DNA of 64,000 nucleotides from a virus. The stretch is taken from positions 64,001 through 128,000 of the IMG/VR virus record IMGVR_UViG_3300028920_000032. The stretch is one strand, 5' to 3'. Position numbers and translations under genes: made by a program. How positions within the stretch are numbered: the first letter of the stretch is position 1; every line of letters starts with the position of its first letter. The notes beneath the pieces are model-generated. The model was given only the letters and a program-made list of their open reading frames with translations, was not told where the DNA came from and made no database searches. This document shows, in pieces, positions 44,397 to 44,600 of this stretch.

Positions 44397-44479
44397 ATTA
44401 AACCTCCTTCAGCTCTCATAATGAGAACAAAATAAATATTTTGAGACTTGCTTCTATTCATTTATTAGTAAAAGAAATG

Positions 44480-44548
44480 AATAAAGAGCAAGTTGGTTGA
44501 TAAAGGGTTAACCCATGAACGATAACCTCTACCATTCAGCTCTTTATT
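44480..44548 (-). ncRNA. Mini Y-RNA-like hairpin in Ro60 5' leader
   Basis: AAUAAAGAGC-UGAAUGGU...GUUAUC...ACC-AACUU-GCUCUUUAUU; resembles the Ro-binding helix of Y RNAs. Confidence 0.6.
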
Positions 44549-44600
44549 AAAGATTATAATTCTATAATCGATATTGTGTTCATAAATAATATATGCGACT

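What the first reader, a model, noticed from the sequence alone, without database searches (positions are those of the whole stretch)
44397..44600. Y-like helix in the Ro60 leader forms a mutually exclusive two-state switch
Seen: segment ACUUGCUCUUUAUUCAUUU (44493-44475) can pair upstream to form the Y-like helix (with AAUAAAGAGCUGAA) or downstream with AAAUGAAUAGAAGCAAGU (44463-44446; 18 bp, one bulge). A third GAGCUGAA overlaps the SD (GAGAGCUGAAGGAGG). The helix resembles human Y1 as I recall it (GUCCGAAGGUAGUGAGUUAUC...ACUUGAC). Inference: Ro60 autoregulates translation by binding its own mRNA.
Basis: partly seen in the sequence, partly recalled or inferred. Interest (0 to 1): 0.75.

Follow-up and report, generated by a model that had tools for sequence, protein, structure and literature searches.

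The report
Y RNA switch before phage Ro60
A small Y RNA just upstream of a phage's Ro60 gene can fold in two mutually exclusive ways, and the gene's ribosome-binding site copies the Y RNA's protein-docking motif, so Ro60 probably limits its own synthesis, although nothing has been tested at the bench.

Summary
Segment 44475-44493 (-) can close the Y-like stem with 44539-44548, or form an 18-bp, one-bulge hairpin with 44446-44463. A further copy of the 5' motif abuts the Shine-Dalgarno (SD) sequence.

The Y-like helix is a genuine 69-nt Y RNA. A covariance model built only from relatives scores it 64.7 bits (E 3e-12). The phage has four such RNAs, and relatives carry arrays of 2-6 upstream of Ro60.

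At equilibrium the downstream hairpin wins by 6-9 kcal/mol and melts only the Ro60-docking stem. It is kept, with compensatory changes, in the sister phage. A shorter version occurs in one other lineage; most relatives lack it.

The stronger clue to autoregulation lies elsewhere. In the window and all 15 relatives examined, the ribosome-binding site is a covarying hairpin followed by an invariant CUGAA and then GGAGG. This is a permuted copy of the Y RNA docking core. CUGAAGGAGG occurs once in the 158-kb genome. C[CU]GAA lies within 30 nt of the Ro60 start in 10 of 21 lineages (1.1 expected).

Ro60 feedback is therefore plausible, but more likely acts at the SD-adjacent mimic than through the switch. 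Binding, transcript ends and repression are all untested. Earlier notes of this scan report similar mimics before Ro60 genes in other genomes, and I found no paper describing them.

The parts
42789..44396 (-). Ro60 (TROVE + vWA) gene, 535 aa
   Evidence: Pfam PF05731 (E 3e-22) and PF25045 (E 1e-27). It is 69% identical to its nearest relative and 29-33% identical to annotated actinophage Ro-like proteins.
44480..44548 (-). Small Y RNA (Ys), 69 nt. It has a 10-bp lower stem, a bulged-U core, an upper stem and a GGUUAUCG loop motif.
   Evidence: Covariance model R1, built from 17 relatives with no window sequence, scores it 64.7 bits, E 2.9e-12. In the family alignment 13 of 16 pairs show compensatory changes.
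44532..44542 (-). 5'-strand Ro60-type motif of Ys (lower-stem end, bulged U, GAA, GG)
   Evidence: CUG is invariant in 19 family members. The motif resembles GNCGAAN0-1G / GGUCCGA, which Ro60 contacts mainly on the 5' strand (PMC4201824).
44446..44493 (-). Alternative hairpin H1. The 5' arm (44475-44493) is the Y 3' strand plus 5 nt, the loop is 44464-44474 (pyrimidine-rich), and the 3' arm is 44446-44463.
   Evidence: -16.2 kcal/mol, z -5.9. It replaces the Y lower stem in the minimum-energy fold. It is conserved in L042 (z -5.5), and a shorter version occurs in L056 (z -4.0).
44429..44445 (-). AU-rich linker (AU box) between H1 and H2
   Evidence: Conserved in relatives at a fixed distance from H2. 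Its weight matrix does not recur in the phage genome above chance (63 real against 46 shuffled), so it is not a general promoter motif.
44412..44428 (-). Hairpin H2 (7 bp, 3-nt loop). Its 3' end runs straight into U-GAA-GGAGG.
   Evidence: Present at the same place in the window and 15 relatives, with covarying pairs 3-5 and an invariant basal G-C. In the minimum-energy fold the flanking U run pairs with GAA.
44403..44412 (-). CUGAA + GGAGG: Y-motif copy fused to the Shine-Dalgarno sequence (GGAGG at 44403-44407). The start codon is at 44394-44396.
   Evidence: Unique in the 158-kb genome. CUGAA is invariant in 14 of 14 aligned loci and also in L073 and L074.
44601..44650 (-). Terminator-like hairpin (arms 44642-44650 / 44610-44619) followed by a U run. 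It closes the upstream RNA unit.
   Evidence: Read from the sequence. L042 has an equivalent 12-bp stem plus U run. The consensus scan does not call it because the loop exceeds 8 nt.
44553..44596 (-). Possible start signals for the Ys-Ro60 transcript: GCATA (44592-44596) and a sigma-70-like pair of hexamers (44553-44582)
   Evidence: The promoter-like match scores 10 of 12 but is no more than chance in this AT-rich region (7 found, 6.2 expected). It is not conserved in L042 or L056. GCATA/ACATA lies 8-48 nt upstream of about 14 of 41 family Y RNAs.
45010..45143 (-). Second, larger Y RNA of the locus
   Evidence: R1 scores it 35.5 bits, E 1.2e-5, with a 70-nt insertion in the apical part.

Best explanation
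Region 44394-44600 (-) holds a genuine small Y RNA (Ys, 44480-44548) followed by a conserved control module for the phage Ro60 gene.

Shown:
- Ys belongs to a covariation-supported family of Y RNAs that sit in arrays upstream of Ro60.
- Its Ro60-docking lower stem and the downstream hairpin H1 are mutually exclusive. H1 is favoured by 6-9 kcal/mol. The predicted barrier from the Y fold to H1 is only 5-6 kcal/mol, so any RNA that includes the 3' arm (44446-44463) loses the docking stem.
- The ribosome-binding site is a conserved hairpin (H2) whose 3' end runs into CUGAA-GGAGG. This is a strand-permuted copy of the Y core: basal G-C pair, bulged U, and GAA opposite a U run.

Inferred:
- Ro60 in excess over its Y RNAs binds the H2/CUGAA site and blocks the adjacent SD. 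This would be feedback by target mimicry, with the Y RNAs as competitors.
- The Ys/H1 overlap, special to this phage and its sister, sorts transcripts. RNAs that end in the U-rich H1 loop become docking-competent Y RNA. Read-through RNAs that go on to encode Ro60 have the cis Y site masked, unless Ro60 catches the nascent stem first.
For: Y RNA identity:
- R1 score 64.7 bits, E 3e-12, from a model trained without window sequences.
- 13 of 16 pairs are compensated in the family alignment.
- There are 43 family hits in relatives, all on the Ro60 strand and upstream of the gene, and four copies in this phage.

Alternative fold:
- Energies, ensemble fractions and refolding barriers and z-scores.
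- In the WIN/L042 alignment the arms are conserved, the distal pairs are compensated and the loop is 11 against 26 nt.
- WIN and L042 are sisters, and L056 lies in another subclade.

Ribosome-binding-site mimic:
- The table of 14 loci shows the U run, a covarying hairpin, a bulged U and GAA, then GGAGG. L073 and L074 show the same.
- The 10-mer is unique in the genome.
- Only 5 of 196 ORFs in the genome have C[CU]GAA at -30..-4.
- 10 of 21 Ro60 lineages have it at -30..-1 against 1.08 expected, P about 2e-8. Streptomyces phage Sham shows a similar layout: two hairpins separated by a linker, then CGAA and the SD.
- Ro60 contacts mainly the 5' strand of the motif (PMC4201824).

One transcript:
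- No recognisable terminator lies between Ys and the ORF.
- The AU box is not a recurrent promoter motif in the genome.
Against: - There are no binding, probing or expression data.
- GAAGGAGG could be explained as an extended SD, leaving only the C and U as extra conserved bases.
- The U-run/GAA pairing shows almost no variation, so it has no covariation support.
- If the AU box is a promoter whose start is the first G of H2, the U run is not in the mRNA, and Ys is not in the leader of that transcript.
- The overlap of Y stem and hairpin is confined to WIN, L042 and, more weakly, L056. L073 has only a -1.9 kcal/mol AU hairpin, which is not significant. The overlap is therefore dispensable for whatever the common module does.
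- The Y-motif variant (CGAA or UGAA) does not track the ribosome-binding-site variant cleanly across distant lineages.
- Lineages in the enrichment test are not fully independent, and the motif was partly chosen after seeing the data.
Confidence: 0.45

Rival explanations
1. Ys is a cis-acting sensor in the Ro60 leader. Ro60 binding to the nascent Y helix blocks invasion by the 3' arm. The pyrimidine-rich tract (the H1 loop) and the arm then stay single-stranded and pair with, or otherwise occlude, the SD. High Ro60 would therefore switch translation off.
For: Both helices are conserved in the sister phage. The low barrier from Y to H1 (5-6 kcal/mol) and the high reverse barrier (13-14) make a kinetic trap by a protein plausible. 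The hairpin loops in WIN, L042 and L056 are all pyrimidine-rich and anti-SD-like. Predicted SD accessibility is lower in the Y state for WIN (0.05 against 0.20) and L042 (0.22 against 0.44).
Against: There is no difference in L056 (0.23 against 0.26). The comparison is biased because the folding program cannot pair a hairpin loop with the SD. At equilibrium Ro60 would have to pay 6-9 kcal/mol. About 12 of 15 relatives lack the overlap but keep the H2/CUGAA module.
Confidence: 0.15
2. There is no feedback. Ys is simply an independent Y RNA gene. H1 is a 3'-end, processing or stability hairpin that overlaps the Y stem in a compacted intergenic region. H2 is a 5' stabilising hairpin in front of a strong SD.
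For: Y RNAs upstream of Ro60 that are processed from precursors are the known norm (PMC4201824). Most relatives have a separate hairpin just before the AU box with no overlap. L056's hairpin scores as terminator-like. GAAGGAGG matches an extended SD, and 42% of this phage's ORFs use an SD.
Against: It does not explain the invariant C-U before GAA, the conserved G-U-C/G-A-C base of H2 that mirrors Y lower stems, or the enrichment of C[CU]GAA before Ro60 starts in distant lineages. It does not explain why 17-18 bp of complementarity to the docking strand is maintained with compensatory changes.
Confidence: 0.3
3. The alternative pairing is a chance inverted repeat in AT-rich DNA with no function.
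For: The window has 42 inverted repeats of 15 nt or more within 60 nt.
Against: z is -5.9, with 0 of 200 shuffles folding as well. The pairing is conserved in L042 despite a different loop and changed distal pairs.
Confidence: 0.04

Closest known systems
Bacterial and phage Y RNAs next to Ro60/Rsr (Deinococcus Yrn1/Yrn2, Salmonella and Mycobacterium YrlA/YrlB, mycobacteriophage YrlA, Thermus phage phiLo Yrl1/Yrl2; PMC4201824, PMC12135203)
   Same: It is encoded just upstream of Ro60 on the same strand. The 5' and 3' ends form a long stem with a bulged helix. The 5'-strand motif is of the GNCGAA / GGUCCGA type. There are several copies per genome, and one copy in the tRNA cluster has T- and D-like arms.
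   Different: It is only 69 nt with no tRNA-like domain. The motif has U where the published consensus has C (CUGAA, not CCGAA/NCGAA). Its docking strand doubles as one arm of a conserved downstream hairpin, which has not been described for any Y RNA that I could find.
Autogenous translational operators that mimic the protein's main RNA ligand (E. coli thrS operator, ribosomal proteins S8, L1 and L20, phage T4 gp32 and RegA; from general knowledge)
   Same: A copy of the primary RNA target sits on or beside the SD of the protein's own mRNA, and the primary ligand (here Y RNAs) would compete with it.
   Different: No binding or repression has been shown. The copy is strand-permuted: its lower stem is closed by a loop. 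No such control is published for Ro60 in the library searched.
Protein-set choice between mutually exclusive leader hairpins (B. subtilis TRAP at the trp leader, PyrR, LicT/SacY antiterminators; from general knowledge)
   Same: One RNA strand is shared by two helices, and a protein that binds one helix could decide the outcome during transcription.
   Different: No terminator or SD-sequestering helix has been shown to depend on the choice here. The 'sensor' helix is itself a free-standing ncRNA family member.

Membership tests
Y RNA (Ro60-associated ncRNA, bacterial/phage sense) | Encoded close to a Ro60/TROVE gene | tested here: met
   It lies 83 nt upstream of the Ro60 start on the same strand.
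Y RNA (Ro60-associated ncRNA, bacterial/phage sense) | Long stem formed by the 5' and 3' ends, containing a bulged helix | tested here: met
   It has a 10-bp lower stem, a bulged U, G.U and A-U pairs, an internal loop and a 9-bp upper stem. 13 of 16 pairs are compensated across 19 family members.
Y RNA (Ro60-associated ncRNA, bacterial/phage sense) | 5'-strand Ro60 motif GNCGAAN0-1G (bacteria) or GGUCCGA (animals) | tested here: inconclusive
   Here the motif reads G-C-U-G-A-A-U-G, with U in place of the consensus C. CUG is invariant in the family. The consensus is taken from PMC4201824.
Y RNA (Ro60-associated ncRNA, bacterial/phage sense) | Length 80-130 nt | tested here: not met
   It is 69 nt. 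Family members range from 61 to about 160 nt.
Y RNA (Ro60-associated ncRNA, bacterial/phage sense) | Bound by Ro60 | not testable with these tools
   This needs EMSA or co-immunoprecipitation.
YrlA subclass | tRNA-like domain (T and D arms) | tested here: not met
   The apical part is about 20 nt with no T or D arm. A different copy in the tRNA cluster (L058 1218-1360) has both.
Rfam Y_RNA (RF00019) and other Rfam families | Match to the curated covariance model | tested here: not met
   No Y-type family is listed among the matches at E<=10 over 44300-45400.
Autogenous translational operator by target mimicry | The mRNA site resembles the protein's primary RNA target | tested here: met
   H2 plus its flanks reproduces the basal G-C pair, the bulged U and GAA opposite a U run of the Y core.
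Autogenous translational operator by target mimicry | The site overlaps or abuts the ribosome-binding site | tested here: met
   CUGAA is directly fused to GGAGG, 6 nt before AUG.
Autogenous translational operator by target mimicry | Conserved across homologous genes | tested here: met
   It is present in the window and 15 relatives, and in 10 of 21 lineages against 1.08 expected.
Autogenous translational operator by target mimicry | The protein binds the site and represses translation | not testable with these tools
   This needs binding assays, toeprinting and reporters.
Two-state regulatory leader (protein-set alternative hairpins) | Two helices share a strand and both are evolutionarily maintained | tested here: met
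   The Y fold covaries. H1 is maintained in L042 with compensated distal pairs and, shorter, in L056. This holds for only 2-3 lineages.
Two-state regulatory leader (protein-set alternative hairpins) | The two states differ in an expression platform (terminator or SD access) | tested here: inconclusive
   SD unpaired probability in the Y and H1 states is 0.05/0.20, 0.22/0.44 and 0.23/0.26. No terminator depends on the choice.
Two-state regulatory leader (protein-set alternative hairpins) | The ligand shifts the equilibrium | not testable with these tools
   This needs SHAPE or in-line probing with and without Ro60.

The most novel reading that the evidence does not exclude
A Y RNA has been domesticated as a cis-acting, co-transcriptional sensor of free Ro60. 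If Ro60 captures the nascent docking stem within the roughly 20-45 nt window before the invading arm is made, the leader stays in the Y state. Otherwise the arm displaces the stem within a fraction of a second. Together with the SD-adjacent mimic, the two outcomes set Ro60 synthesis and the yield of mature Y RNA from one transcript.
Probability: 0.15. Interest if true: 0.8.

Novelty: new variant of a known kind. Interest (0 to 1): 0.55.

Why it matters
How cells or phages match the amount of Ro60 to its Y RNA partners is unknown. In the papers searched here, Ro60 is described as regulated only at the level of transcription or stress induction.

A docking-site copy at the Ro60 ribosome-binding site gives a simple, directly testable feedback loop of the ribosomal-protein type. 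It is kept in every relative examined here and recurs in distant phages.

The overlap of a real Y RNA with an alternative hairpin would add a second layer. It would be the first case I know of in which a Y RNA's docking stem is conditionally masked. The RNAs involved are short enough (69, 103 and about 50 nt) for immediate binding and probing experiments.

Tried and rejected
- Rfam at gathering and at E<=10 gave nothing at the element.
- blastn of the region against 50,697 phage records found no match.
- An IMG/VR pattern search for the shared-strand hairpin found none. An IMG/VR pattern for the 5' motif found mostly chance coding hits, apart from L001/L019 and L017.
- The genome-contig scan returned only one N-terminally truncated contig, in a Methanosarcinales MAG.
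- The sigma-70-like promoter before Ys is no better than chance and is not conserved.
- The AU box as a general phage promoter was rejected, because its weight matrix is not enriched in the genome.
- Base-pair probability of Y lower stems with 70 nt of downstream sequence is noisy. Many non-terminal Y RNAs also 'lose' their short AU-rich stems, so this measure is not specific.
- L073, the sister of L056, has only a weak, non-significant AU hairpin.
- Matching of the Y-motif variant to the ribosome-binding-site variant across lineages is not clean.
- The gapless inverted-repeat finder splits the bulged hairpin and does not rank it.
- Two Ro60 reviews were not held in the library.
- Relatives of a virus record cannot be drawn by the genome search.

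Full report
**Setting.** The window is part of a 158,329-bp virus record with 30% G+C and many tRNA genes. The ORF at 42789-44396 (-) is a Ro60 protein with TROVE and Ro60-type vWA domains. Its nearest relatives are metagenomic phage proteins at 55-72% identity. Cyanobacterial Ro60 is about 47% identical and actinophage Ro-like proteins about 30%.

**Observation.**
- 44475-44493 closes a Y-type stem with 44539-44548. The Y fold alone is -21.2 kcal/mol.
- The same segment forms an 18-bp, one-bulge hairpin (H1) with 44446-44463: -16.2 kcal/mol, z -5.9, 0 of 200 shuffles as good.
- With both partners present the minimum-energy fold keeps the Y upper stem and replaces only the lower stem with H1 (-27.6 against -21.2). 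The lower stem is the Ro60-docking part. The ensemble fraction with the arm free is about 1e-5.
- A direct-path estimate gives a barrier of 6.3 kcal/mol from the Y state to H1 and 12.7 back. For the sister phage the values are 5.2 and 13.8.
- The motif copy at the SD is CUGAAGGAGG at 44403-44412.

**What the Y-like helix is.** Upstream of Ro60 in relatives I found tandem hairpins with the same 5' motif, a GGUUAUCG-type element and a matching 3' strand.
- An alignment of 19 small copies has invariant CUG, UUA and CUUG. Its consensus fold has 13 of 16 pairs with compensatory changes.
- A covariance model built from 17 relatives, with no window sequence, finds 44480-44548 at 64.7 bits, E 2.9e-12.
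- The same model finds three more copies in this phage. One is at 45010-45143. The other two lie in the tRNA cluster outside the window, and one of them has T- and D-like arms.
- In relatives it gives 43 hits, all upstream of Ro60 on its strand, in arrays of 2-6.

The element is therefore a bona fide member of a phage Y RNA family. This is the known arrangement of Y RNAs beside Ro60 (PMC4201824; phiLo, PMC12135203). Rfam does not detect it.

**Is the alternative hairpin more than chance?**
- The sister phage L042 has a Ro60 69% identical to the window's and the same divergent M23 peptidase neighbour. The two are sisters with 100/100 support.
- L042 has the same overlap. The shared strand and the core of the arm are identical. 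The distal pairs outside the Y stem are changed on both sides. The loop is 26 nt rather than 11 and is unrelated in sequence. z is -5.5, and H1 is favoured by 8.6 kcal/mol.
- L056 lies in another Ro60 subclade. It has a 9-bp version with the same bulge and an identical 10-nt arm core (z -4.0), followed by a separate hairpin.
- L073, the sister of L056, has only a weak AU hairpin (-1.9 kcal/mol, not significant).
- The remaining relatives show no such arm.

The overlap is under selection in the window's own small clade but is not a general feature.

**The conserved module at the Ro60 start.** The layout is the same in the window and 13 relatives and in L073 and L074. In order it comprises:
1. 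an AU-rich box;
2. a U run;
3. a 5-8-bp hairpin H2 that starts G-U-(C/U) and ends (G/A)-(A/G)-C;
4. one U;
5. GAA;
6. GGAGG, followed 5-9 nt later by AUG.

Pairs 3-5 of H2 covary, with three Watson-Crick types at pair 4. The basal G-C, the U and the GAA never change.

Read as a helix, the U run pairs with GAA and leaves the single U bulged (in the window itself the extra U makes this a 1x1 U/U loop). Together with the basal pairs, this is the core of the family's Y RNAs with the strands swapped and the lower stem closed by a loop. One family Y RNA (L050) has the same G-U-C-U-C / G-A-G-A-C stem as H2 of L044 and L053.

Published work states that Ro60 contacts mainly the 5' strand of GGUCCGA / GNCGAAN0-1G (PMC4201824). 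That strand is the one fused to the SD here.

The 10-mer is unique in the genome. Only 5 of 196 ORFs have C[CU]GAA at -30..-4.

Among 21 lineage representatives with usable starts, 10 have C[CU]GAA within 30 nt of the Ro60 start against 1.08 expected (P about 2e-8). The 10 include actinophages Sham, BlueNGold, FuzzBuster and Magritte and the metagenomic loci L005, L026, L027, L033 and L048. Sham shows a similar layout: hairpin, linker, hairpin, CGAA, SD.

There are three caveats. The lineages are not fully independent. The motif was partly defined after seeing the data. GAAGGAGG can also be read as an extended SD in a phage that does use SDs (42% of ORFs against 4% background).

**Transcription unit.**
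- A terminator-like hairpin plus U run ends the upstream RNAs at 44601-44650. L042 has an equivalent.
- No terminator is recognisable between Ys and the ORF.
- The sigma-70-like match before Ys is at chance level and is not conserved.
- GCATA (44592-44596) recurs upstream of about a third of family Y RNAs. Whether it is a start or a processing signal is unknown.
- The AU box is not a recurrent motif in the phage genome, which argues against a general promoter there.

Together these points favour a primary transcript that carries Ys, H1, H2 and Ro60. This remains an inference. A start at the first G of H2 cannot be excluded.

**Mechanism.** Best-supported reading (0.45): Ro60 feedback acts at H2/CUGAA by target mimicry, with Y RNAs as competitors. 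The Ys/H1 overlap decides whether a given RNA presents a docking-competent Y stem. It does so only if the RNA ends before 44463, or if Ro60 traps the nascent stem.
- Shown: the family membership, the two folds and their energetics, the conservation patterns, and the motif identity.
- Inferred: binding, occlusion of the SD, competition, and transcript partition.

It is possible but weaker (0.15). Predicted SD access differs modestly in two loci and not in the third, and the comparison cannot model pairing between a hairpin loop and the SD. Most relatives also do without the overlap.

A no-feedback reading has an independent Y RNA, a processing or stability hairpin and a strong SD. It remains a serious rival (0.30).

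**Comparison and novelty.** As an RNA gene this is a new, small member of the known Y RNA kind. Feedback by target mimicry and protein-set alternative hairpins are well-known kinds of control. Applying either to Ro60 is not in the literature I could search.

Earlier notes of this scan report similar ribosome-binding-site mimics before Ro60 genes in several other genomes: phages, an actinomycete, cyanobacteria and an archaeon. Those are unchecked AI notes. My own survey agrees with their claim of recurrence. Notes on this genome list the same four Y RNAs, which I had found independently.

The part specific to this finding is the masking hairpin. I did not see it reported elsewhere.

Noticed in passing
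L058 183-260 (-) and 1218-1360 (-), i.e. genome 138982-139059 and 140017-140159, outside the window: Two more Y RNAs lie inside the tRNA cluster. One is small (41.7 bits). The other is YrlA-like, with a T arm and a D arm (34.1 bits), and is followed at once by an SD and a small ORF.
   Followed up: partly
window 44592-44596 (-); many loci: GCATA or ACATA lies 8-48 nt upstream of about 14 of 41 family Y RNAs. It usually sits right after the U-rich tail of the preceding Y RNA and is followed by a TATA-like stretch. It could be a promoter or a processing signal.
   Followed up: partly
relatives L022, L024, L025, L043, L044, L053, L074, just after the last Y RNA; window 44464-44474: A pyrimidine-rich, anti-SD-like tract follows the last Y RNA in every relative. 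In minimum-energy folds it often pairs with the Ro60 SD. In the window, L042 and L056 it forms the loop of the alternative hairpin.
   Followed up: partly
relatives, immediately upstream of the AU box (for example L043, L044, L022, L025, L001, L045, L056): A sequence-variable hairpin sits 3-8 nt before the AU box in about 11 of 14 loci. The shared layout is hairpin, AU-rich linker, hairpin H2, SD, which may be an RNase E-type processing site. In the window and L042 this position is taken by the alternative hairpin.
   Followed up: partly
window about 59765-59795 (-), upstream of an ORF starting at 59761 (-): This is the only other ORF in the genome with C[CU]GAA followed by GG near its start. 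The motif is an ACCGAAUGGU-type sequence inside a small AU-rich hairpin about 20 nt before an SD.
   Followed up: no
L048 1460-1491: In a relative with 48% Ro60 identity, the GCUGAA motif lies between the SD and the AUG instead of before the SD. A clear sigma-70-type promoter separates the last Y RNA from Ro60.
   Followed up: no
L060 (Streptomyces phage Sham) 380-465; L065 (Microbacterium phage FuzzBuster) 400-489: Annotated actinophage Ro-like genes show a similar hairpin, C(C/U)GAA and SD arrangement. In FuzzBuster a Y RNA ends directly at the motif.
   Followed up: partly
window 44672-44995 (-): A roughly 324-nt non-coding stretch lies between the two Y RNAs of the locus and is closed by the terminator-like hairpin. 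Earlier notes of this scan call it a conserved structured RNA. I did not examine it.
   Followed up: no
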